DNA of 64,000 nucleotides from positions 32,001 to 96,000 of the IMG/VR virus record IMGVR_UViG_3300020457_000004. One strand, given 5' to 3'. The stretch comes from a virus. Shown here one piece after another: positions 2,281 to 10,631 of this stretch; within the stretch, counting starts at the first letter, position 1, and the number at the start of each line of letters is the position of its first letter. The notes beneath the pieces are model-generated. The model did not search any database and had not been told where the DNA came from. It saw only the letters and a program-made list of their open reading frames with translations. The translations under genes and the position numbers were made by a program.

Positions 2281-3947
2281 GACATCACACTATAGTTTCT
2301 TATCTTTTCAAATTTAATCTGATTTCTAAATTTATCAAACAACTGGTCACCCTTGTGAGAAATCACAAACACATTGGTTTCCTCTCCTATGGTATTCAAT
2401 AGGTTCATTACATAGTCAACCCCATTGTTATCCAAGGAACTGTCAAATACTTCATCTAGTAATAACAGGTTGGTACTCGCACTATTTTTCATTTTAGCAA
2501 TTGTACGCCATGTAAATAATAATGCCAAGTCTATTCTTTGTTTCTCACCCTCACTAAAACTGGAGTAAGAAAACTTATCTCTATGTCTGGACTTTATTGT
2601 TTCATTGAACTTTTCATCTAAATCAAAGTGAACAAAGAAATCCATAGCAGCCAAATATTTATTCACCAACTGATTGATGATTGGTAGATACTGTCTTATA
2701 ACTCTAGTCTTAATTCCTGTGTCTTTAAGCAGACTAGCAGCGGCAGTATTATAATGTTGTTCTTCACCCTTACTAGTTTTTTCTTTGTTTTTATTTGTTA
2801 GGTCAACAGCCATTTCTTTAAGTCTGTTTCTCTCATCATCTATATCAGCAACATTAGTTTCTGCTTCATTTAGTTCCAAAGTTAATCTATTCTTGTATCT
2901 TTCTTGAGTTATAAGTTCACTTTGAATCTCTGTTATGTCAGTCACAATCTGGTCATACTTTTCTATTGCATCGTGGACAGAACTATACTCTGCATCCATA
3001 TCGTGTAAACCAGTTTCTAACTCTTGTATTCTTTCTGATTTTTCTTTTTGTTTTTCTTCTTTGAACTCATGGGTTAATCCTTGTTTACAGGTAGGGCATT
3101 CTTCTGTGTCGTGGTAGAAGTCAAGTTCTTTTCTTGCTTTTCTGAGGTTAGAGTTGAGTTTGTCTTTGAGAGCATCCAGTTTGCGTTTCCGTTCTTTCGG
3201 GTCATCATGACTCTCCTTCTCTGCTGTTGTCTCTGCAAGTTTTGTCTCAAGTTCAGTAGTCGCCTCGATGAGCTCATCAATTTTCTCCTTAATTTTATCA
3301 ACTTTAATTTTCTTGTCCTTTTCCAACTGTTCAATATACTTTCTTTGAACCGTTGCTTTGGATTTTGCTACTTCCACTTCTGATTCCACATCTCTAATTT
3401 CATCTCTAAGGACGGCAATCTTCTCGCGTAACACTTGATTCATAGTCGTAAATATTTCGATATCAAGTATGTCCTCGATAATTTCTCGGCGAGATGCTGT
3501 AGGCAACTGCATAAATGGCGTAAAGGAAGCACTTCCCAGTATTACTATTTGAGTAAACGATTTGAAGTTCATCTTCAATATACTTTCTTCAAGGTATTTC
3601 TGTGTATCTCTTACAGCAGCATCTTGGTCTAACATCTGCCCGTTACAATATACCTCAAAGATACTTGGTTTAACACCGCGAATAACTTTAAACTCTTTAC
3701 CGCCTATTCTAAACTCTATTTCAACAATCATCTTTTTATTGTTGATTGAGTTTATCAACTGAGTTTTACTAATCTTACGGAATGGTTTATTAAATAAAGA
3801 AAAACATACAGCATCAAGCATTGTGGATTTACCACTACCATTCTCACCTACCACTAGAGTGCTAGGACTTCGATTAAACTCTATCTCTGTAAAACTATTT
3901 CCTGTAGACAAGAAATTTTTCCATCTTATTTTTTCAAATGTAATCAT
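2277..3947 (-). CDS. gp46: recombination endonuclease ATPase subunit (Rad50/SbcC-like)
   Basis: Walker A GENGSGKST, CPTC zinc hook, FSEGEKQRIDLALLF, LLLDEVFDSSLD. Confidence 0.96.
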   Translation of the reverse strand: MITFEKIRWKNFLSTGNSFTEIEFNRSPSTLVVGENGSGKSTMLDAVCFSLFNKPFRKISKTQLINSINNKKMIVEIEFRIGGKEFKVIRGVKPSIFEVYCNGQMLDQDAAVRDTQKYLEESILKMNFKSFTQIVILGSASFTPFMQLPTASRREIIEDILDIEIFTTMNQVLREKIAVLRDEIRDVESEVEVAKSKATVQRKYIEQLEKDKKIKVDKIKEKIDELIEATTELETKLAETTAEKESHDDPKERKRKLDALKDKLNSNLRKARKELDFYHDTEECPTCKQGLTHEFKEEKQKEKSERIQELETGLHDMDAEYSSVHDAIEKYDQIVTDITEIQSELITQERYKNRLTLELNEAETNVADIDDERNRLKEMAVDLTNKNKEKTSKGEEQHYNTAAASLLKDTGIKTRVIRQYLPIINQLVNKYLAAMDFFVHFDLDEKFNETIKSRHRDKFSYSSFSEGEKQRIDLALLFTWRTIAKMKNSASTNLLLLDEVFDSSLDNNGVDYVMNLLNTIGEETNVFVISHKGDQLFDKFRNQIKFEKIRNYSVMS

Positions 3948-4816
3948 AAATTTTTGATAAAAGGTACTACCATCTCCTCTGCATATTTTTTATGTTGTAT
4001 CACCGTGGGGTGCATAATGTTATTTTTCCTGTCCCAACCCAATCTAGTTTCTTCTACGAATTTAGTTTTAGTGTTTTCATAACACCACTCAAATTCACCA
4101 CTAGGTATAAAGTTTTCCCAATTAATTAAATTACTAATCCAAGATATCTCTGGGTCTTGGTAAACTTCACTCTGTTCACTAAAACAATTTTCGGCATATC
4201 TATGAAAAAAATATTTTATGTTTCTATTGATTAGAAACTCCTGTGTTCCCATGACGCATTGCAAACTGTGTATGATTCTTTGTACTTCATTCGCCCAAGT
4301 TTTAAAATAAATAGACCTTCCTATTTCAACATACTCTCTTGCTTTTGGATTAAATTTTACAAACGGTGTTTTTGAGTTGAGTTGTTCCTCTATGAAATAT
4401 ACGGTGGCTGGATTAAAAGGAATCCATTCTCCGTTACAATCTTTAATTGGTCTTCTTGGGTGGAATGGTACACCTTTAGCACCTATTTTTGGTTCCGAAT
4501 CATGTTTATAAATTTCAGTTCTATCATAACTAGACCACATAACACCAACCGTTATTGCCGATGTTGGGTATCCCATTTCAAACATCCTAGAAAGTGTATA
4601 CAACACTTGTCTCATAATCATGTTATTACCAACACCAGCAAAAGCAGCATTGATACAAACCATATCTAATTCGTCAGCAGTATGTTCTCCCCATGAATTA
4701 CTAGTGCCATCATTGGGAAGATTATTTTCTGGCCATTGATTAGTTGGTGCGGTAAACGAACATCCAGAAACTACCAGATATTTTTTACCTTCTTCATACT
4801 CTGGTATGTGTAACAT
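3944..4816 (-). CDS. SGNH/GDSL hydrolase-like protein
   Basis: VSGCSFT, INAA.AG.GN, VMWS..DR.E, HPT..QH..YA motifs; sits between gp47 and gp46. Confidence 0.55.
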   Translation of the reverse strand: MLHIPEYEEGKKYLVVSGCSFTAPTNQWPENNLPNDGTSNSWGEHTADELDMVCINAAFAGVGNNMIMRQVLYTLSRMFEMGYPTSAITVGVMWSSYDRTEIYKHDSEPKIGAKGVPFHPRRPIKDCNGEWIPFNPATVYFIEEQLNSKTPFVKFNPKAREYVEIGRSIYFKTWANEVQRIIHSLQCVMGTQEFLINRNIKYFFHRYAENCFSEQSEVYQDPEISWISNLINWENFIPSGEFEWCYENTKTKFVEETRLGWDRKNNIMHPTVIQHKKYAEEMVVPFIKNL

Positions 4817-5869
4817 CTAAACCTCTATGTGTTGTGCTTCTACATATAAGGATTGCAATACACTCTTTAATCTTTCTTTGTCTAAATCTGTTACGGTATT
4901 ATCAACATAATCATTTAACAATGTAATTGTATCATCAAGTTTCAAATCCATTTCTCCTACCGCGTTATCCTCAAACTCTGAAAAGTCTTCTATAATCTTT
5001 AACTCCACTAGATTACAACTGTATAATGAGTCAATCAGTTTGTCAAACTTAGCAAAGTTTTCTTTCTTTACAACAATAACTTTTACACATCCGCCAACTA
5101 AATTAGTCAAATCATATTCTACATCATCATCAACATCATTATAGAATATCTTATGAAACATTCTAAATGGATTTTGCATGAATTCTAATTCATTAGTTTG
5201 CGTATCATAGATATTGAACCCTCTATTATCGTTGAAATCAGACCATGTAATTTCATAAGGGTTACCAAGATACACCACATTATCCCTAGCAGAACGGTGA
5301 TGGTAATGACCACTACAAACCAAATCGAAGCGCTCAAAGGCATTATGATCCATTCCATGCTCATTTGGCAGACCTTTATACATTTGGAACCCAGCGAATT
5401 CAAAGTGGCCGAAACATACTTCTGCGTCAGTTCTTTTGACCATTTCCATAGTAGACTCATAATTATCGCTACATATCCAAGGAACAAATAAAATTTTTCT
5501 CCCATCAAATTCTAACTCTGTAATTTCTGGATATACGATGACATTATCATACTCTTGTAATAGTAATTCTGGTGCATTGACATCATTGGTGTTTTTGAAA
5601 TAAGTATCGTGGTTGCCTGGCACCACATGCATATCTATATTTAGGTCTTTTGCTTGGTTGAAGAAATACTCTTTACAACTCTTGAGTGTGTTGTAATTCA
5701 TATACTTTCTTCTATCAAAGATATCACCCAAATGCATAATTGTTTTTATCTCTCTTTCCGCTAGTGCTGGAAAGAAGAACTCATCATAGAATTTTCTGAA
5801 ATACGAATCAAACGGCAAACTGTCTGACCTCGCACCAAAGTGTGTATCGTTAACTAACGCTATCTTCAT
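4817..5869 (-). CDS. gp47: recombination endonuclease nuclease subunit (Mre11/SbcD-like)
   Basis: DTHFG, LGDIFDRRK, GNHD, SGHYH, YLGNPYEITWSD metallophosphoesterase motifs. Confidence 0.96.
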   Translation of the reverse strand: MKIALVNDTHFGARSDSLPFDSYFRKFYDEFFFPALAEREIKTIMHLGDIFDRRKYMNYNTLKSCKEYFFNQAKDLNIDMHVVPGNHDTYFKNTNDVNAPELLLQEYDNVIVYPEITELEFDGRKILFVPWICSDNYESTMEMVKRTDAEVCFGHFEFAGFQMYKGLPNEHGMDHNAFERFDLVCSGHYHHRSARDNVVYLGNPYEITWSDFNDNRGFNIYDTQTNELEFMQNPFRMFHKIFYNDVDDDVEYDLTNLVGGCVKVIVVKKENFAKFDKLIDSLYSCNLVELKIIEDFSEFEDNAVGEMDLKLDDTITLLNDYVDNTVTDLDKERLKSVLQSLYVEAQHIEV

Positions 5870-6851
5870 TCAATACCCCATTCATTTTATGAGAGAATAT
5901 CTCATAGTATCCCTCAAGAGTTAATAGTTTCTTACCATAGTTCATTCTATACTCTTCAAGTTTTTTATCTAACAAACTTTCATCCCTCAACTCCATGACC
6001 TTAGATTTCAAATCATCAAAGTCTTCTATTCTTTGCCAAGGGTCTATGTTATATGTGTTGTTCTTGTCGTACTGTTTCCACACAAAAGGTATCATTCCTA
6101 TTGCGAGTGCCTCCACATATCTAGATGTAGTAGCAGTCTCATCCTTCCAGTTAAAACATAATGTCCATCTGCATGGTTCTAACATAGGATATAATTGATT
6201 CCAATCTTTTATCCACGAAGCCTGTCTTTGAATACCAGATGGAAATCCACCAATCAAACATGTGCTTAAGTCTGGGTCACGATAAATCTTTCTAATAATC
6301 TTATCGCGGTTACACCCTGTCTTCATGCGTCCCCAATATCCAAAGTCGGTTCTCTTTGCCGTAGTGAATAGTGGGTTGCCAAATTTGTTTCTTATAAAGT
6401 GATACTTCATTCCGTGTATGTTACCAGAGAAATCAATCTCATCAATCTCTGTGTAAGATTTGATTGGCACATTCTGTAGTGTTTCTTCTCTGTATAACTT
6501 TTCGTCATCACCTCTATCACTTCTCATGACAATAACATGTTTGTCTTTAAAGAATGGTATGATGTTATCCATGTGGGCCTGTGACTTCGCCAAGTCTTTT
6601 GGATTCATTTGTAACTCACCATGATATCTAAACTCACTATCACTAGGGATTACTATCGCGTCAGCCCATTCTATTGACTCTGGTGTTCTCTTGGGTCTAG
6701 TACCATCAAATGATATGTTATAGGTTCCGTACTGGTGTTGGGGGTTTGCCCTCATCCACTTCACATAGTTCTCTAAAAAACTATCTAGTACCGTTTGTAG
6801 TGGGCCTTCATACTTTACATTAGACCGCAATCTAGCACATGTTATCTTCAT
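5850..6851 (-). CDS. DNA beta-glucosyltransferase-like GT-B glycosyltransferase
   Basis: C-terminal half aligns by eye with T4 BGT: KRTDFGYWGRMKTGCNRDK vs KKTLDVIYGGSFRSGQRES; TTSRYVEALAIGMIPFVWKQYD vs ITLRVWETMASDAVMLIDEEFD; DDLKSKVMELRDE vs AELIDRVNELKHS. Same position as T4 a-gt (upstream of gene 47). Confidence 0.7.
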   Translation of the reverse strand: MKITCARLRSNVKYEGPLQTVLDSFLENYVKWMRANPQHQYGTYNISFDGTRPKRTPESIEWADAIVIPSDSEFRYHGELQMNPKDLAKSQAHMDNIIPFFKDKHVIVMRSDRGDDEKLYREETLQNVPIKSYTEIDEIDFSGNIHGMKYHFIRNKFGNPLFTTAKRTDFGYWGRMKTGCNRDKIIRKIYRDPDLSTCLIGGFPSGIQRQASWIKDWNQLYPMLEPCRWTLCFNWKDETATTSRYVEALAIGMIPFVWKQYDKNNTYNIDPWQRIEDFDDLKSKVMELRDESLLDKKLEEYRMNYGKKLLTLEGYYEIFSHKMNGVLNEDSVS

Positions 6852-7180
6852 ACTTTTCTCTTTCCGTCAAACACACAAATGAAATATAAATCATTGTCAT
6901 CTGAACTATTATAAACTTTGTGAAAGACACCATCTTGAATTGGTACTATATCGCCAGCCTTAACATTGGTGTATAACGAATCTAATTCTATGATACCTTC
7001 ACCTTCAATAAAAAAATATACCTCTTCTTGACCATCGTGTTCATGTCCAGTAGTTTCCTGTCCACCACGCAATCGCGTACTACTAATTACTAATGTGTTA
7101 CCAAAAGGATTATCCTTGACAATATATCTATCGTCTTCCTTAGCAACATATCCACCAATGTCATTTTGGTTTAGGAGCAT
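6848..7180 (-). CDS. cupin-domain protein (mannose-6-phosphate isomerase type II-like)
   Basis: TTGHEHDGQEEVYFFIEGEG and GDIVPIQDGVFHKVYN cupin motifs. Confidence 0.85.
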   Translation of the reverse strand: MLLNQNDIGGYVAKEDDRYIVKDNPFGNTLVISSTRLRGGQETTGHEHDGQEEVYFFIEGEGIIELDSLYTNVKAGDIVPIQDGVFHKVYNSSDDNDLYFICVFDGKRKV

Positions 7181-7568
7181 TCCTCACTCGTTTTCTTAAA
7201 TCTGTAGAAGAGAAAGTGTGTGCTCTACTGGTATAGTAAACCTCTATGGGTAAATGACTCCCTGTAAACATCTCATCTTTATACTCTTCACCGACAAATC
7301 TTATGTCAATTCGTTTCGTATTGAGTATATCCATCAAACAACTTTCCCTGTCGTATGGGATAACCTCATCAACATATCTGAGACCATACAACTGAATGTA
7401 TCGCTCGTATATACTTTGTACTGGTTTGTTTTTATTTGACCTGTCTAGTGTGGGGTCTGTTTGTAATCCCACCATAAGAAAGTCACAATTATCTTTTGCC
7501 TCTTCAAGCATAACTACATGACCAGCGTGTAGTAAATCAAATGCACCACAAGTAAATCCTACTTTCAT
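7161..7568 (-). CDS. cytidylyltransferase (TagD/glycerol-3-phosphate cytidylyltransferase-like)
   Basis: CGAFDLLHAGH (HxGH), KPVQS..ER, VDEVIPY, R....SSTDLRKR. Confidence 0.88.
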   Translation of the reverse strand: MKVGFTCGAFDLLHAGHVVMLEEAKDNCDFLMVGLQTDPTLDRSNKNKPVQSIYERYIQLYGLRYVDEVIPYDRESCLMDILNTKRIDIRFVGEEYKDEMFTGSHLPIEVYYTSRAHTFSSTDLRKRVRNAPKPK

Positions 7569-7978
7569 TTTATTATCCTTGTAAAATTATCTAAGTCAAC
7601 AAAGTGTGGAGTGAAACTATAAATGTCACCAATCTCTTTACAATGACTCAAAACACTTCTACTTATTTTATGACTGCCTGTTATAATATAAACCTCGTCA
7701 TATTGATACTGTTTATAATACTTCCAAATTTTATGTGGTAGTTTTTCTTCTACACTACCCCCAACATTTTGATTTGTACAATCAGCATAAAATATTTGTT
7801 CGTCCTTGGTAATAATGAAATCAATTTCTCTCGCACCAGATTTAGCTCTTGTATATCCAATAGAGTTTTGCTTACAAAACTTTTCAACCAATAGTTCTAG
7901 TCTCTTACCAGAGTTTTCTGGTCTTCCTAGTATTGGTTCGTCTATATCCTCTACAACTAAACCAAGGGAGTTTTTCAT
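7565..7978 (-). CDS. PD-(D/E)XK restriction-endonuclease-like protein
   Basis: SGKRLE..V, EIDFII, ADCTNQNVGGSVEEKLP (canonical E.K.Q...GS.DEK.P, with K replaced by T). Confidence 0.6.
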   Translation of the reverse strand: MKNSLGLVVEDIDEPILGRPENSGKRLELLVEKFCKQNSIGYTRAKSGAREIDFIITKDEQIFYADCTNQNVGGSVEEKLPHKIWKYYKQYQYDEVYIITGSHKISRSVLSHCKEIGDIYSFTPHFVDLDNFTRIIK

Positions 7979-8226
7979 TGTCTGTCAGCCCACCACTCCA
8001 TTTTTTCAAAGTCATTGAAACCACCAATCAGTTCACCGTCCACAAATATCTGTGGGAATGTTCTGGCGTGAGGTGATTTTTCAAGCAGTTCATCAAATGT
8101 AAAATCTTCATCTAACATTTTTTTCTCATACTTGATATGTGTTGTTTCTTGTACTATTTGTTGTGCAATATGCACAGCCCTGTCACAGAAGGGGCAATCT
8201 GGTTTTGAATAAATTTCTATGTTCAT
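7975..8226 (-). CDS. glutaredoxin
   Basis: IYSKPDCPFC, TFPQIFVDGELIGGF. Confidence 0.93.
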   Translation of the reverse strand: MNIEIYSKPDCPFCDRAVHIAQQIVQETTHIKYEKKMLDEDFTFDELLEKSPHARTFPQIFVDGELIGGFNDFEKMEWWADRQ

Positions 8227-9335
8227 CTTATTATATCTATTTTGTTAATTGTTTCAGAATTCCAGACTTCCAAATCTTTTCTTATTCTTCCATCTGAGAC
8301 CAAGTTGCTATATCTTTTGACGGCTTTCTTTTTCCACCAATCAATAACATTTTCTAGTTCAAACCTATCAAAGTTTTCTGCCTTCTCTAGTGTATTTGTT
8401 TTACCAAGAAGAACATCGCGTACATTCTTATATCCATACTCTGACATATAAAATCTTTTTTGTGTAGTCACATCGGTTGACTTCTTGATTACATCATCAA
8501 ACAACTCATATGCTTTCACATCATGTTCTTTTAGGTTTGCCTTGAGAACTTGAATCATCTTTGTTTGGTATTTAAGTTTTCTACTAGATGCACCCTTGTG
8601 AATAAGAACTTCACCACCATTCTTTTCTTCAAACCAATCGCGTAAATGAAAATAAATTTCTTCACCCATAGTTAGTAAGAATGATGACATGGTATCTCCT
8701 TTATATCTTAGGAACGGTCTCATACCATCGTACATACTAGCACCCTTTATGTTACCATATAAAGATGTAGTTTCAAACAAACAAAACTCTGTATTGTATT
8801 TCTTGTTCAACATCCTTCGTACTTCATGCGAACAACAAATGGCAGCCAATAACTTACCACCTAGATAATTAAATCCAAATGGTTGTACTGGAACTATATT
8901 AAACCCCATGATTGCCCTCTTGTTAAAGATAGGCAAGTCGGGGACACCACCAAGAAAATCATTCCTTGGTTTGGAGTTTATTAACGGTGACCCCAACTTG
9001 ATAAAACCAACTGCTGTGTTTGTATTCGTTTCTTTCACAATCAGTTTTAATTCTTTGCCTGGCGCTTGGTCTGGTGAAAAAGATGCAGTCATCTCTAGCA
9101 TCTGGTCAAACACCTCATTGTTCATTTGAACAACTGAAAAATTCATTTCTTCTGGATGCATATCCCAACTCTGAAACATATCATCCTCTACACTCATACC
9201 AAAGAGAGGCGGAGGCAATGCCTTCACTCTTTCGATTTTTCTCGCACGAAAGTAATCGTCAATCCTTTCAAACTTTGAAAAGTAATCAACAACTATCTTG
9301 CTAGCATATATGGTATCTTCTTTTGATAATATCAT
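8223..9335 (-). CDS. DUF4338 / DruA-like protein
   Basis: PGKELKLIV, GFIKLGSPLIN.KPRN, VPVQPFGFNYLGGKLLA, FETTSLYG, MYDG motifs of the phage DUF4338 family. Confidence 0.7.
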   Translation of the reverse strand: MILSKEDTIYASKIVVDYFSKFERIDDYFRARKIERVKALPPPLFGMSVEDDMFQSWDMHPEEMNFSVVQMNNEVFDQMLEMTASFSPDQAPGKELKLIVKETNTNTAVGFIKLGSPLINSKPRNDFLGGVPDLPIFNKRAIMGFNIVPVQPFGFNYLGGKLLAAICCSHEVRRMLNKKYNTEFCLFETTSLYGNIKGASMYDGMRPFLRYKGDTMSSFLLTMGEEIYFHLRDWFEEKNGGEVLIHKGASSRKLKYQTKMIQVLKANLKEHDVKAYELFDDVIKKSTDVTTQKRFYMSEYGYKNVRDVLLGKTNTLEKAENFDRFELENVIDWWKKKAVKRYSNLVSDGRIRKDLEVWNSETINKIDIIR

Positions 9336-9871
9336 GCGACATTCATAAACTCTGGTACATCGCGGTTAGTCCATTTAGCGAAACCTTTTTTCTCTTCTCT
9401 GTAATAGGTTCTGTATCCATCAAGAGCGTTGGACTGTTTACAATAATCTGGCATACATTGTGGTGGTTCATTCCAAGAACCATGTGGTATATTCTTTGGT
9501 GACTCAGATAACAATTCACGCAACTTGGAATCGGTCATGTGTATTCTACCATACCTGTATGTGTACTCATCACAAAGATTAGTAAACATGTTGTACATGT
9601 ATTGATACTGAGAATTGTTTTCACGAACCCATATAGCAGATGGGTGATTGATGTGTGACGCTTTGTATAAGACACCATCCATATTAGAATTGTCTAGTCG
9701 CCACCGTTTGATTTTCCTACCACTAGATGCGTCAATCCATTGTGTACCATCCAACATTCTGTGGGCGGTAGACAATAACTGAGCATACTCAATAACCATC
9801 TTCACGACATGTTTGTCGCAATGCATTTTTACTGATATGGTAGGGGTTTTATGTAAATAAAATATGTTCAT
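9332..9871 (-). CDS. pyrimidine-dimer DNA glycosylase / endonuclease V-like protein
   Basis: MNIFYL, HCDKHVVKM..EYAQLLSTAH, H.NHPS.IW.R, PPQCMPD, YR.YY..EK. Confidence 0.75.
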   Translation of the reverse strand: MNIFYLHKTPTISVKMHCDKHVVKMVIEYAQLLSTAHRMLDGTQWIDASSGRKIKRWRLDNSNMDGVLYKASHINHPSAIWVRENNSQYQYMYNMFTNLCDEYTYRYGRIHMTDSKLRELLSESPKNIPHGSWNEPPQCMPDYCKQSNALDGYRTYYREEKKGFAKWTNRDVPEFMNVA

Positions 9872-9909
9872 AATAAAGAAAACTCCAATTAAACTTTATA
9901 TAACTACAC

Positions 9910-9938
9910 ATTATACGCTATCTGCGGGCAAAAGTCAA
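9910..9938 (-). promoter_or_regulatory. sigma70-type early promoter of the denV-like to gp47 operon
   Basis: TTGACT-17 nt-TATAAT. Confidence 0.8.
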
Positions 9939-10540
9939 GTACTTTTTTCTGCATCTTTCAACTCTGGTATTTTCTCCTTTGCCATCTTCATTGCTTCCTT
10001 GTCATCCAGATATTTCGGACGCCTTTTAGGAACCTTCTTATCTTGTTCTGCGTACTGAGCATTATGTTTTTCCGCTTCATCGATTTGTTTTTTCATATAC
10101 TCTACGAATTCAGCAGAACCCCCATGACCTTCTTCGCCATCTATGATAGATTGCATGTCAATGTTCTGGATGTACTTGTACTTAGTGTCAAGTTGTTTCT
10201 TTTCTTTTTGTATCCTTCTTAGAAAAGCATAGTATGTAATCTGCGTGAAGTACGCAAATGGATTCTTTGACTTTTCTGGATTGAAGTTATCAATGTATGT
10301 GATACAGTTTTCTATACCATCCAAAATCATTTCTTCTCTGAATGTATAGTTTACGAAATTTGATTTGTATGCGAGGTGGTTTGCAATTTTTACAAAACAC
10401 TCTCCGATATACTCTGTGACACGCGGTTTATCTTTTCCTTTCTCTGCGGCCTCCAATACCGATTCTCGGTATGCAGTCATAGCAACAAGGAATTCTTTGT
10501 TGTTCACATAGTGTCGATTAGTTTCTGATTTCTTATTCAT
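9935..10540 (-). CDS. gp55: late-transcription sigma factor
   Basis: HYVNNKEF, YIGECF.KIA.HL, NF.NYTFREEMI.DGIEN, NPFAYFTQI.YYAFLRRIQKEKKQ. The track start at 10552 overlaps the -10 box, so 10540 is preferred. Confidence 0.96.
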   Translation of the reverse strand: MNKKSETNRHYVNNKEFLVAMTAYRESVLEAAEKGKDKPRVTEYIGECFVKIANHLAYKSNFVNYTFREEMILDGIENCITYIDNFNPEKSKNPFAYFTQITYYAFLRRIQKEKKQLDTKYKYIQNIDMQSIIDGEEGHGGSAEFVEYMKKQIDEAEKHNAQYAEQDKKVPKRRPKYLDDKEAMKMAKEKIPELKDAEKST

Positions 10541-10550
10541 AATGTTGTCC

Positions 10551-10579
10551 ATTCTATAATAAAGTTACGCAAAAGTCAA
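10551..10579 (-). promoter_or_regulatory. sigma70-type promoter for gp55
   Basis: TTGACT-17 nt-TAGAAT. Confidence 0.7.
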
Positions 10580-10601: not shown

Positions 10602-10631
10602 TTGACAACTGCCCAAGGTTTCATGTATAAT
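10602..10631 (+). promoter_or_regulatory. sigma70-type promoter, divergent from gp55, with no downstream ORF
   Basis: TTGACA-18 nt-TATAAT, both hexamers perfect. Confidence 0.65.

What the first reader, a model, noticed from the sequence alone, without database searches (positions are those of the whole stretch)
5850..9938. Candidate new DNA hypermodification operon: BGT-like transferase + cupin + cytidylyltransferase + PD-(D/E)XK nuclease + DUF4338
Seen: one near-consensus sigma70 promoter (9910-9938) precedes seven overlapping ORFs (ATGA junctions at 9332, 8223, 7975, 7565, 6848) that run into gp47. The last ORF aligns by eye with the UDP-binding C-domain of T4 beta-glucosyltransferase, while its N-domain is divergent. 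Established: T4 a-gt sits at this position upstream of gene 47; T4 glucosyltransferases use host UDP-glucose; T4-like phages that arabinosylate DNA carry their own sugar isomerase/NTP-transferase genes. Inference: the TagD-like nucleotidyltransferase and the cupin make a non-glucose donor (CDP-polyol or unusual NDP-sugar) that the BGT-like enzyme transfers to a DNA base, and the nuclease could cut unmodified DNA. No hydroxymethylase is visible in this window.
Basis: partly seen in the sequence, partly recalled or inferred. Interest (0 to 1): 0.82.

Follow-up and report, generated by a model that had tools for sequence, protein, structure and literature searches.

The report
Marine phage DNA-type glycosyltransferase cassette
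An ocean T4-like phage carries a distant relative of T4's DNA glucose-adding enzyme, almost always paired with an acyltransferase-fold protein and with no known way to make that enzyme's usual target base, which suggests an undescribed sugar decoration of phage DNA.

Summary
Seven minus-strand ORFs (9871 to 5850), five ATGA junctions and a conserved sigma70-type promoter lie between gp55 and gp47, the slot of T4 a-gt.

The 333-aa ORF is a GT-B glycosyltransferase. T4 beta-glucosyltransferase is its closest relative by profile, fold and language-model features.

The proposed operon logic is only partly right. In 80 related loci the constant partner is the DruA/DUF4338 GNAT-fold protein (71/80; 37/38 with full flanks). 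The single exception has a true Mom gene there. The cytidylyltransferase is in 45/80, the cupin in 8/80 and the nuclease in 1/80.

No ThyA-type hydroxymethylase or hydroxylase is present in this contig or in 10 related records.

Relatives add TAGT-like, GT4 and FkbM genes, or a ParB/DNA-methylase fusion. This genome also has Mom next to a cytidylyltransferase-PMI-cupin fusion.

Best reading: a GNAT plus BGT-like DNA hypermodification module with variable sugar-supply genes. The acceptor base is unknown and no chemistry has been tested.

The scan reached the same reading on other genomes.

The parts
9910..9938 (-). sigma70-type (early) promoter, TTGACT-17-TATAAT, 39 nt upstream of the p179 start codon
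   Evidence: Scores 11 of 12. The -35 box is invariant and the -10 box conserved in 10 of 10 aligned related loci. Sequence read.
9332..9871 (-). 179-aa protein of unknown function (phrog_624, labelled 'DNA binding protein'); first gene of the run
   Evidence: phrog_624 at 1.3e-50. No Pfam or NCBIfam family. No Pyr_excise/DenV signal in the contig. Within 3 kb of the GT in 23 of 80 loci. A homologue lies near a distant GT homologue in L093.
8223..9335 (-). 370-aa DruA/DUF4338-family protein with a GNAT-fold core (about residues 60-310) and a helical insertion (about 225-287); the constant partner of the GT
   Evidence: PF14236 at 31.2 bits (cut-off 27) and phrog_19197 at 7e-150. PADLOC DruA at 5e-5. 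AF2 model pLDDT 80. All 50 rows shown by VIA are GNAT-fold or GNAT-related proteins, led by phage Mu Mom at Z 9.2, which is tied with others at 9.0-8.0. Foldseek top rows are mostly GNATs at E about 4e-3. Within 3 kb of the GT in 71 of 80 loci.
7975..8226 (-). 83-aa glutaredoxin (NrdH/GrxA-like); probably nucleotide-reduction housekeeping rather than part of the module
   Evidence: PF00462 at 1.4e-12. Below the cut-off for every NCBIfam glutaredoxin equivalog. Present in 14 of 80 loci. T4 has nrdH near gene 55.
7565..7978 (-). 137-aa PD-(D/E)XK-like protein; a lineage-specific insertion
   Evidence: PF20472 at 25.3 bits against a 23.7 cut-off. Present in only 1 of 80 related loci, L006.
7161..7568 (-). 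135-aa HIGH-motif cytidylyltransferase-like nucleotidyltransferase; accessory, probably donor supply
   Evidence: PF01467 at 4e-15. TIGR02199 rfaE_dom_II 70.7 bits and TIGR01518 TagD 67.3 bits, both far below their cut-offs. PDB matches: ethanolamine-phosphate cytidylyltransferase 1.7e-19 and TagD 1coz 9.7e-15 over the full length. Within 3 kb of the GT in 45 of 80 loci and within 100 bp in 37 of 80. 41% identical to the CT half of the Mom-adjacent fusion.
6848..7180 (-). 110-aa metal-binding cupin (an HxH...E...H motif read by eye); accessory, function open (sugar isomerase or oxygenase)
   Evidence: PF07883 at 8e-11. Best PDB match 1o4t at 4e-7. Adjacent to the GT in 8 of 80 loci, all close relatives. 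Not similar to the HTVC008M gp105 cupin or to the PMI cupin of the fusion.
5850..6851 (-). 333-aa GT-B glycosyltransferase of a large uncharacterised marine-phage family, distantly related to T4 beta-glucosyltransferase; core enzyme of the module
   Evidence: No Pfam, PHROG, NCBIfam or PADLOC family. 907 relatives. AF2 pLDDT 93.6. Foldseek ranks 1-11 are T4 BGT or AGT. VIA: BGT Z 19.1, AGT 16.8, next 15.8. Profile and hhalign hits to the BGT C-domain. ESM Atlas neighbours carry PF09198.
4817..5869 (-). gp47 (SbcD-like recombination nuclease subunit); downstream flank that defines the a-gt-equivalent slot
   Evidence: phrog_100 at 5.6e-106 and Metallophos. T4 gene order.
9935..10552 (-). gp55 late sigma factor; upstream flank
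   Evidence: phrog_234 at 9.7e-60.

Best explanation
The region holds a phage DNA-hypermodification module. Its conserved core is two genes: a DruA/DUF4338-family GNAT-fold enzyme (8223-9335) and a T4-BGT-like GT-B glycosyltransferase (5850-6851). Both are transcribed early from the promoter at 9938-9910, in the slot where T4 keeps a-gt.

Proposed mechanism (inferred, not shown):
1. After replication, the GNAT-fold enzyme either prepares a non-hydroxymethyl acceptor on a DNA base or tailors the product. By analogy with Mom, this could be an acyl- or aminoacyl-derived group.
2. The BGT-like enzyme flips the base out and transfers a sugar from an NDP-sugar.
3. The cytidylyltransferase and cupin are lineage-specific accessories. 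They most likely supply or alter the activated donor, just as the TAGT-like GT-A, GT4 and FkbM methyltransferase genes found in related phages would extend or tailor the glycan.
4. The glutaredoxin and the PD-(D/E)XK gene are passengers.

Shown here: the gene structure, the promoter conservation, the folds, homology to the BGT C-domain, the co-occurrence figures, and the absence of ThyA-type precursor enzymes.

Inferred: DNA as the acceptor, the order of the steps, and the identity of base and sugar.
For: GT identity:
- A profile of 38 family members hits only T4 BGT in the PDB (E 6.1e-4).
- hhalign against T4 BGT gives E 3.4e-4 over GT residues 161-323 and BGT residues 175-349. It aligns D169/Y172/G174/K177 with BGT D183/Y186/G188/R191, and the near-invariant R244 and invariant E247 with R269/E272.
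- Foldseek ranks 1-11 are all T4 BGT or AGT.
- VIA over 48,161 chains: BGT Z 19.1 (rmsd 3.6, 287 aa), AGT 16.8, generic GT-B 15.8 or lower.
- Both ESM Atlas neighbour clusters that carry a DNA-GT family carry PF09198 (scores 0.97 and 0.96).
- A distant family member, P0268, weakly hits PF09198 itself.

Links to DNA:
- The gene occupies the slot of T4 a-gt.
- True Mom genes (PF25680, 3e-39 and 2e-43) lie next to the GT in L043 and L036. A TAGT-like gene (PF20691, 5e-15) directly follows it in L036.
- By tblastn, TAGT-like genes lie within 3 kb in 18 of 80 loci and Mom in 7 of 80.
- An N6_N4 DNA-methylase-like gene sits two genes upstream in L081.
- P0191 fuses a GT homologue to ParB_N and an N6_N4 methylase.
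- Distant homologues sit among gp32, UDG and RNase H genes.

The partner:
- The DruA-like gene lies within 3 kb in 71 of 80 loci, and in 37 of the 38 loci that have at least 3 kb on both sides. This holds across several different gene orders. The exception, L043, is from a 36.6-kb phage rated 97% complete and has Mom overlapping the GT's end.
- HTVC008M keeps a second, divergent DruA paralogue beside its GT.
- The fold is GNAT, with Mom as the top VIA row. A passage of PMC10853773 calls DUF4338 a GNAT domain.

This genome also encodes Mom (7e-60), translationally coupled to a cytidylyltransferase plus PMI-cupin fusion. The same pair occurs in G001.

Precedent: phage DNA glycosylation clusters combine a first GT, further GTs and NDP-sugar genes (PMC13326640, abstract and sections 25 and 27).
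Against:
- The acceptor (N-terminal) domain has no sequence match to the BGT N-domain family PF09198, so acceptor specificity may have changed.
- No precursor pathway was found. ThyA homologues are in 0 of 11 records, Tet_JBP in 0 of 11 without a positive control, and no C5, N6/N4 or Dam methylase is in this contig.
- The contig is only 83% complete.
- The DruA-like family shows no sequence relation to Mom (hhalign E 0.12 and 0.41). Its Mom fold match is tied with ordinary GNATs.
- DruA-like genes occur in 25 Synechococcus phage records where tblastn finds no GT homologue. Part of the adjacency could therefore be inherited synteny; many of the 80 loci are close relatives or near-duplicates.
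- Mom is present in only 5 of 26 GT-bearing records. It is absent from a 100%-complete one and from HTVC008M.
- Isoelectric points do not discriminate: the family median is 8.25, BGT 9.05 and AGT 6.11.
- The pelagimyophage paper (passages read) attributes such GTs in general to host O-chain modification.
- Earlier first-reader notes report other glycan islands in this genome that could also use NDP-sugars.
Confidence: 0.55

Rival explanations
1. The GT acts on a non-DNA acceptor, such as a host envelope glycan or LPS, a protein or a metabolite. On this view the GNAT, cytidylyltransferase and cupin form an auxiliary glycan or sugar-nucleotide tailoring set, as has been proposed in general for pelagimyophage glycosyltransferases.
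For: No precursor base pathway was found. The N-domain lacks PF09198. The cytidylyltransferase is RfaE-II/TagD-like, typical of envelope pathways. Passages of PMC7029224 argue that pelagimyophage GTs and rfaE serve O-chain modification. FkbM, GT4 and GT-A neighbours are also typical of polysaccharide clusters. First-reader notes report other glycan islands in this genome (untested).
Against: The only sequence-detectable relative is the DNA enzyme BGT, and BGT and AGT lead both fold searches. The gene lies in replication and recombination modules in every arrangement seen. It neighbours or is fused to Mom, TAGT-like and DNA-methylase genes. The paper's argument concerned GT8 enzymes in the tail-fibre region, not this family.
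Confidence: 0.2
2. The GT is a DNA glycosyltransferase that works alone on a hydroxylated pyrimidine, made by an enzyme not recognised here: a divergent oxygenase, a host enzyme, or a gene in the missing 17% of the contig. On this view the DruA-like gene is merely a syntenic neighbour with an unrelated role.
For: BGT, AGT and TAGT enzymes all act on hydroxymethyl pyrimidines (family descriptions). TAGT-like genes follow the GT in 18 of 80 loci. HTVC008M has a JmjC-type cupin between its GT and its DruA paralogue, and a 2OG oxygenase nearby. The Tet_JBP search had no positive control. DruA-like genes exist without the GT in cyanophages.
Against: ThyA homologues, which are needed for hmC, hmU and 5hoC (PMC13326640 abstract), are absent from all 11 records, including HTVC008M and two others that are at least 90% complete. 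No oxygenase is consistently nearby: the gp105 homologue is in 0 of 80 loci and the gp102 and gp112 homologues in 4 of 80 each. GT-GNAT proximity survives several rearrangements, and Mom replaces the DruA-like gene in L043.
Confidence: 0.13
3. One reading: cytidylyltransferase plus cupin make a CDP-polyol or unusual NDP-sugar, the GT transfers it to a hydroxymethyl-type base, and the PD-(D/E)XK nuclease cuts unmodified DNA. All five genes would form one functional unit.
For: The CT is adjacent to the GT in 37 of 80 loci. The CT is TagD/ECT-like over its full length. A second CT-plus-cupin pair, fused, lies beside Mom in this genome. The genes are translationally coupled.
Against: The cupin is adjacent in 8 of 80 loci and the nuclease present in 1 of 80. 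35 of 80 loci have no CT within 3 kb. No hm-base pathway was found. The nuclease assignment is borderline at 25.3 bits against 23.7.
Confidence: 0.07

Closest known systems
Phage T4 DNA beta-glucosyltransferase (Bgt; CAZy GT63, Pfam PF09198; PDB 1bgt, 1c3j, 1j39); second, T4 alpha-glucosyltransferase (Agt; PDB 1xv5, 1y6f)
   Same: Two-domain GT-B fold, best match over the whole chain (Z 19.1, 287 aa). Detectable homology to the C-domain, with the nucleotide-binding TxRxxE and YxG..(K/R) motifs aligned. Phage gene in the a-gt slot between genes 55 and 47. Transcribed from a sigma70-type promoter.
   Different: About 14-16% identity. No PF09198 (N-domain) match. The genome lacks dCMP hydroxymethylase and every other ThyA homologue. 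It is constantly paired with a GNAT-fold protein, which T4 lacks. The donor may not be UDP-glucose, given the CT and cupin neighbours.
Phage Mu Mom (PF25680), a GNAT-fold enzyme that uses Gly-tRNA to make N6-carbamoylmethyl-adenine in dsDNA (PMC13219725: abstract and sections 13 and 38 read)
   Same: The DruA-like partner has a GNAT core with an inserted helical element before the last strand, and Mom is its top VIA match (Z 9.2, 165 aa). True Mom genes sit beside the GT in L036 and L043, and one is encoded elsewhere in this genome.
   Different: There is no sequence-level relation between the DruA-like and Mom families. The fold match is tied with ordinary acetyltransferases. Mom is not known to work with a glycosyltransferase: the Mom paper has no occurrence of 'glycosyl' or 'glucosyl'.
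Druantia type I DruA (PF14236, formerly DUF4338; PADLOC DruA)
   Same: Pfam hit above the gathering score (31.2 against 27) and PADLOC DruA at E 5e-5. HTVC008M gp106 hits more strongly (5.5e-18 and 4e-14).
   Different: It is phage-encoded, with T4-type phage genes as the neighbours seen; druB-E were not searched for. Only residues 70-192 match the model. No function is known for DruA itself.
Arabinosyl-5-hydroxycytosine clusters of RB69, DLP3 and HY126 (PMC13326640)
   Same: T4-like phages. A first DNA GT plus further GT-B enzymes, plus phage-encoded sugar isomerase and nucleotidyltransferase genes that build the donor. The glycan composition varies between relatives.
   Different: Those systems start from 5hoC made by a ThyA homologue, which is absent here. 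Their GTs resemble GT4 enzymes rather than BGT. Their nucleotidyltransferase is MurU/NTP_transferase-type, not the HIGH-motif cytidylyltransferase type. They have no GNAT partner.
TET-associated glycosyltransferase (TAGT, PF20691) systems
   Same: A TAGT-like GT-A gene directly follows the GT in L036 (5e-15), and similar genes lie within 3 kb in 18 of 80 loci.
   Different: No Tet_JBP or C5 methylase was found. The window itself has no TAGT-like gene (search of this genome).

Membership tests
T4 beta-glucosyltransferase family (GT63 / PF09198) | GT-B two-domain fold closest to BGT | tested here: met
   Foldseek ranks 1-11 are BGT or AGT, with TM 0.60-0.66 for BGT. VIA: BGT Z 19.1, rmsd 3.6 over 287 aa, which is 2.3 above AGT and 3.3 above the best generic GT-B.
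T4 beta-glucosyltransferase family (GT63 / PF09198) | Sequence match to the Pfam model PF09198, which covers BGT residues 1-167, the N-terminal (acceptor) domain | tested here: not met
   No Pfam hit at E up to 0.1 for the 333-aa protein. PF09198 matches T4 BGT residues 1-166. Only a distant family member, P0268, hits it weakly (7.7e-4, below the cut-off).
T4 beta-glucosyltransferase family (GT63 / PF09198) | Nucleotide-sugar-binding C-domain residues. The roles of BGT R191, R195, R269 and E272 are recalled from the literature, not from any call. | tested here: met
   K177 aligns with R191. Near-invariant R244 and invariant E247 align with R269 and E272. Invariant R182 falls one position from R195.
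T4 beta-glucosyltransferase family (GT63 / PF09198) | Catalytic base equivalent to BGT Asp100 (role recalled) | tested here: inconclusive
   Conserved D112 (32 of 38) and D115 (36 of 38) follow strand 105-110. No residue-level structural alignment was available.
T4 beta-glucosyltransferase family (GT63 / PF09198) | Acceptor is 5-hydroxymethylcytosine in phage DNA, so the genome encodes dCMP hydroxymethylase | tested here: not met
   PF00303 is absent from this contig and from 0 of 10 related records, including HTVC008M and two further records that are at least 90% complete.
T4 beta-glucosyltransferase family (GT63 / PF09198) | Transfers sugar to DNA | not testable with these tools
   Support comes only from context: Mom, TAGT-like and methylase neighbours, and a ParB-methylase fusion.
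Druantia DruA (PF14236) | Match to the family model above its cut-off | tested here: met
   31.2 bits against a 27 cut-off, over residues 70-192. PADLOC DruA at 5.3e-5.
Druantia DruA (PF14236) | Encoded in a druABCDE defence operon with the DruE helicase | not tested
   The neighbours seen are T4-type phage genes. No search for DruB-E was run, so this feature was not tested.
GNAT superfamily (for the DruA-like protein) | GNAT fold | tested here: met
   All 50 VIA rows shown are GNAT-fold or GNAT-related proteins, Z 9.2-7.2. Foldseek top rows are mostly GNATs, with probability 0.98-0.99 for the best. A passage of PMC10853773 calls DUF4338 a GNAT domain. No CoA- or tRNA-binding residues were checked.
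Mom family (PF25680), for the DruA-like protein | Sequence membership | tested here: not met
   Pfam gives only DruA. hhalign against Mu Mom gives E 0.12, and profile against profile gives E 0.41. Mom is the top VIA fold row but is tied with others.
Glycerol-3-phosphate cytidylyltransferase (TagD, TIGR01518) / RfaE domain II (TIGR02199) | Equivalog-level score | tested here: not met
   67.3 bits against a cut-off of 165.4, and 70.7 against 181.5. Superfamily membership (PF01467, TIGR00125) is met. Full-length alignment to TagD 1coz at 9.7e-15.
PD-(D/E)XK nuclease superfamily | Family model match and catalytic motif | tested here: inconclusive
   PF20472 at 25.3 bits against 23.7, over residues 47-101 only. 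The catalytic residues were not examined.

The most novel reading that the evidence does not exclude
A GNAT-fold enzyme (the DruA-like protein, or Mom where it takes that place) installs an acyl- or aminoacyl-derived group on a purine in phage DNA, most plausibly at adenine N6 as Mom does. The BGT-like enzyme then glycosylates that appendage. Two examples: N-glycosylation of a carbamoylmethyl amide, which resembles an asparagine side chain, or O-glycosylation of a hydroxy-amino-acyl group. Variable extra GTs, a methyltransferase and nucleotide-sugar genes would then diversify the glycan. This would be the first glycosylated adenine hypermodification, and it would be common among abundant ocean T4-like phages, including pelagimyophage HTVC008M.
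Probability: 0.17. Interest if true: 0.92.

Novelty: new variant of a known kind. Interest (0 to 1): 0.74.

Why it matters
Every phage DNA glycosylation characterised so far starts from a hydroxylated pyrimidine (hmC, hmU or 5hoC) made by a ThyA homologue or a TET enzyme. This BGT-related family is large: 907 clusters at 90% identity, mostly from ocean metagenomes. It sits in genomes without such enzymes and is tied to a GNAT-fold protein of the DruA/DUF4338 family, whose function is unknown both in phages and in the Druantia defence system.

If the module modifies DNA, three things follow:
- It defines a new route to glycosylated DNA in some of the most abundant viruses in the sea.
- It gives DUF4338 a first testable activity.
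- It bears on how native marine viral DNA behaves in restriction, cloning and nanopore or SMRT sequencing.

One cultured phage, HTVC008M, carries the pair, so the question can be tested directly.

Tried and rejected
- Sequence searches of the GT alone found nothing useful in Pfam, PHROGs, NCBIfam, PADLOC or the PDB. Only the family profile reached BGT.
- Megablast of the region against phage records found no match.
- The search for related loci with distant homologues P0183 and P0206 found no relative in viral contigs. The A3 subfamily profile found none in 185,579 prokaryote genomes and two in viral contigs.
- A search for longer fused forms found none. This is weak evidence, because P0191 exists.
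- DruA-like against Mom at the sequence level was not significant.
- Complex prediction on the DruA-like protein plus the GT returned 'no answer' (score 0.00). This counts neither for nor against binding.
- Isoelectric point as a proxy for DNA binding was uninformative.
- The window cupin is not similar to HTVC008M gp105 (JmjC-like) or to the PMI cupin of the Mom-adjacent fusion. The idea of one conserved cupin step was therefore dropped.
- No oxygenase is consistently near the GT.
- The 'DenV-like' reading of p179, made by other first readers and suspected by me, found no support. There is no PF03013 in the contig and no similarity to the part of the HTVC008M endonuclease V gene that was held.
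- The cupin's Acinetobacter phage homologue lies about 2 kb from an annotated b-gt. I judged this too loose to use.
- BFVD fold search added only unnamed phage proteins and one entry labelled 'DNA beta-glucosyltransferase'.
- Supplementary files were not consulted. Table S4 of PMC7029224 and the similarity network of PMC13219725 might already list these families.
- Not-in-print claim: no paper in the library holds DUF4338, glycosyltransferase and phage together. A search combining beta-glucosyltransferase, cyanophage, pelagiphage, DNA glycosylation and hypermodification gave two papers, neither about this family.

Full report
**Where the window lies.** The window is bases 32001-96000 of a 137,116-bp IMG/VR viral contig that CheckV rates 83% complete. 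Its gp55, UvsW and gp47 genes are 44-56% identical to those of Pelagibacter phage HTVC008M. This makes it an uncultured marine T4-like myovirus.

**The observation.** All seven minus-strand ORFs exist at the stated coordinates. The five named junctions read ATGA. The CT/cupin pair and the GT/gp47 pair each overlap by 20 nt. The promoter TTGACT-17-TATAAT at 9938-9910 scores 11 of 12. Promoter-like sites are not enriched in the region as a whole (34 found, 31.5 +/- 5.9 expected). This site, however, is a phylogenetic footprint: in 10 of 10 aligned loci the -35 box is invariant and the -10 box is kept while the spacer drifts. In T4 the order is 55 ... a-gt, 47.1, 47, so the 333-aa ORF occupies the a-gt slot.

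**The glycosyltransferase.**
- It has no Pfam, PHROG, NCBIfam or PADLOC family.
- Among 50,697 phage records only HTVC008M gp104 resembles it, at 40% identity. That hit appears twice, as the GenBank and RefSeq copies.
- In metagenomes the family is large. 907 cluster representatives reach E of 0.001 or better among 1,819 scored candidates. 148 of the 50%-identity representatives do so among 1.84 billion.
- A 38-sequence alignment gave an AlphaFold model with pLDDT 93.6.
- In Foldseek against the PDB, ranks 1-11 are T4 BGT or AGT.
- In VIA-align against 48,161 representative chains, BGT has Z 19.1 (rmsd 3.6, 287 of 333 residues), AGT 16.8 and the best generic GT-B 15.8.
- At the sequence level the family profile hits only BGT in the PDB (6.1e-4). 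hhalign gives E 3.4e-4 over the whole C-domain. The near-invariant R244 and invariant E247 fall on BGT R269 and E272, and G174 and K177 fall on G188 and R191. The roles of those BGT residues are recalled, not taken from a call.
- ESM Atlas features point independently to PF09198 clusters.
- One distant family member weakly hits PF09198.
- The N-terminal domain has no detectable sequence similarity to BGT's, so acceptor specificity is open.

**What travels with it.** I fetched 80 IMG/VR loci encoding relatives of 64-97% identity. I located homologues of every neighbour by tblastn. The table gives the number of loci, of 80, with a homologue within 3 kb of the GT (for gp47, within 100 bp).

| Neighbour | Loci of 80 | Note |
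|---|---|---|
| DruA-like protein | 71 | 37 of the 38 loci with at least 3 kb on both sides |
| Cytidylyltransferase | 45 | within 100 bp in 37 |
| gp47 (within 100 bp) | 34 | |
| TAGT-like GT-A | 18 | |
| Glutaredoxin | 14 | |
| GT4-type GT | 10 | |
| Cupin | 8 | all adjacent, all close relatives |
| Mom | 7 | |
| PD-(D/E)XK | 1 | |

Many loci are close relatives or duplicates, so these counts are not independent events. Even so, GT-DruA proximity persists through several different gene orders:
- gp55-p179-DruA-...-CT-GT-gp47
- DNA polymerase-DruA-X-GT-TAGT-...-Mom
- DruA-GT
- DruA-CT-GT
- GT-X-GT4-DruA
- DruA-GT4-GT-gp47
- gp46-GT-JmjC cupin-DruA paralogue (HTVC008M)

The one full-flank locus without a DruA-like gene is L043. 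It comes from a 36.6-kb phage rated 97% complete, and there a true Mom gene (PF25680, 3e-39) overlaps the end of the GT.

DruA-like genes also occur without the GT in 25 Synechococcus phage records. The dependence therefore runs one way.

**The partner.**
- The 370-aa protein matches Pfam DruA above its cut-off and PADLOC DruA.
- Its model (pLDDT 80) has a GNAT core. All 50 VIA rows shown are GNAT-fold or GNAT-related proteins. Phage Mu Mom leads at Z 9.2 over 165 residues but is tied with ordinary GNATs at 9.0-8.0. Foldseek's top rows are mostly GNATs.
- A passage of PMC10853773 calls DUF4338 a GNAT domain.
- Sequence profiles show no relation between the DruA-like and Mom families.
- Mom transfers glycine from Gly-tRNA to adenine N6 in dsDNA. 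It has an inserted HTH-like element that is needed for activity (PMC13219725: abstract and section 13). The DruA-like model also has a helical insertion before its last strand, but this is only an analogy.

**Further links to DNA modification.**
- This genome encodes a strong Mom homologue (7e-60) about 6 kb before the window start.
- That Mom gene is ATGA-coupled to a 255-aa fusion of a cytidylyltransferase-like domain and a PMI-type cupin. The CT half is 41% identical to the window's cytidylyltransferase. The same pair is kept in G001.
- Mom is nevertheless present in only 5 of 26 GT-bearing records. It is absent from a 100%-complete one and from HTVC008M.
- P0191 fuses a GT homologue to ParB_N and an N6_N4 DNA methylase.
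- L081 has a methylase-like gene and a PLP enzyme upstream of the GT. L093, which carries a 35%-identical homologue, has the same PLP enzyme, plus UDG, RNase H and a p179 homologue nearby.
- FkbM-type methyltransferases follow the GT in 4 of 80 loci.

**What is missing.**
- ThyA homologues make hmC, hmU and also 5hoC (PMC13326640 abstract). They are absent from this contig and from 0 of 10 related records.
- Tet_JBP is absent from all 11 records, but that search had no positive control.
- No C5, N6/N4 or Dam methylase is in the contig.

**Accessory genes.**
- The cytidylyltransferase aligns over its full length with TagD and also matches ethanolamine-phosphate cytidylyltransferase. It is equally close to RfaE domain II and is well below every equivalog cut-off. 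Its substrate is therefore unknown.
- The cupin carries a metal-binding motif and has no informative relative.
- By analogy with the ara-5hoC clusters (PMC13326640 sections 25 and 27), these genes most likely supply a special donor.

**Verdict.** It is wrong about the conserved composition and probably about the acceptor. The chemistry is wholly untested.

**Earlier reports.** Follow-up reports of this scan on other genomes reached the same reading. I saw them only. New here are:
- the Mom-for-DruA substitution in L043;
- the Mom plus CT-PMI-cupin pair in this genome;
- the TAGT-like, GT4 and FkbM variability;
- the ParB-methylase fusion;
- the co-occurrence counts.

Noticed in passing
outside the window: G000:C1:24455-26037 (locus L085 596-2181, minus strand): A strong Mom-family gene (273 aa, PF25680 2e-58) is ATGA-coupled to a 255-aa fusion of a cytidylyltransferase-like domain and a PMI-type cupin. 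A peroxiredoxin and the gp45 clamp lie upstream. The same Mom plus fusion pair occurs in G001 (L086).
   Followed up: partly
L043 9977-11915 (record G015, 36.6 kb, rated 97% complete): A small phage that is not T4-sized carries a 67%-identical GT homologue, directly followed by and overlapping a 313-aa Mom-family gene. tblastn found no DruA-like gene in the locus (20,984 bases). An HTH_36/DnaT-like gene lies upstream.
   Followed up: partly
protein P0191 (808 aa, metagenomic representative): A GT-family domain (residues 28-276) is fused to ParB_N and part of an N6_N4 DNA methylase.
   Followed up: partly
L001 9028-9555 (HTVC008M gp105): The gene between HTVC008M's GT (gp104) and its DruA paralogue (gp106) is a JmjC_2/cupin protein (1.8e-7). 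This raises the possibility of a hydroxylase step in that phage. No homologue was found in the 80 loci or in this genome.
   Followed up: partly
L036 8790-10001; L051 4018-5352; L049 7962-9389: Large ORFs are inserted next to the GT in some loci. Two have N-termini that look like GIY-YIG homing endonucleases (by eye only; no Pfam hit). One hits GmrSD_N weakly (25.1 bits, below its 33.2 cut-off).
   Followed up: no
window 10602-10631 (+ strand) and 10579-10551 (- strand): A perfect 12-of-12 sigma70-like site (TTGACA-18-TATAAT) lies on the plus strand in the gap upstream of gp55, back to back with a 10-of-12 minus-strand site before gp55. No plus-strand gene was examined there.
   Followed up: no
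window 3944-4816 (- strand): The 290-aa ORF after gp47 gives only a weak, sub-threshold DUF6071 hit (25.0 bits against a cut-off of 27). Homologues follow gp47 in a number of related loci at 33-94% identity.
   Followed up: no
L093 7177-7992 and L081 8602-9378: A PLP-dependent enzyme of the PALP fold (22.7 bits, below its cut-off; the two copies are 51% identical) sits immediately upstream of the GT homologue in two distant lineages.
   Followed up: partly
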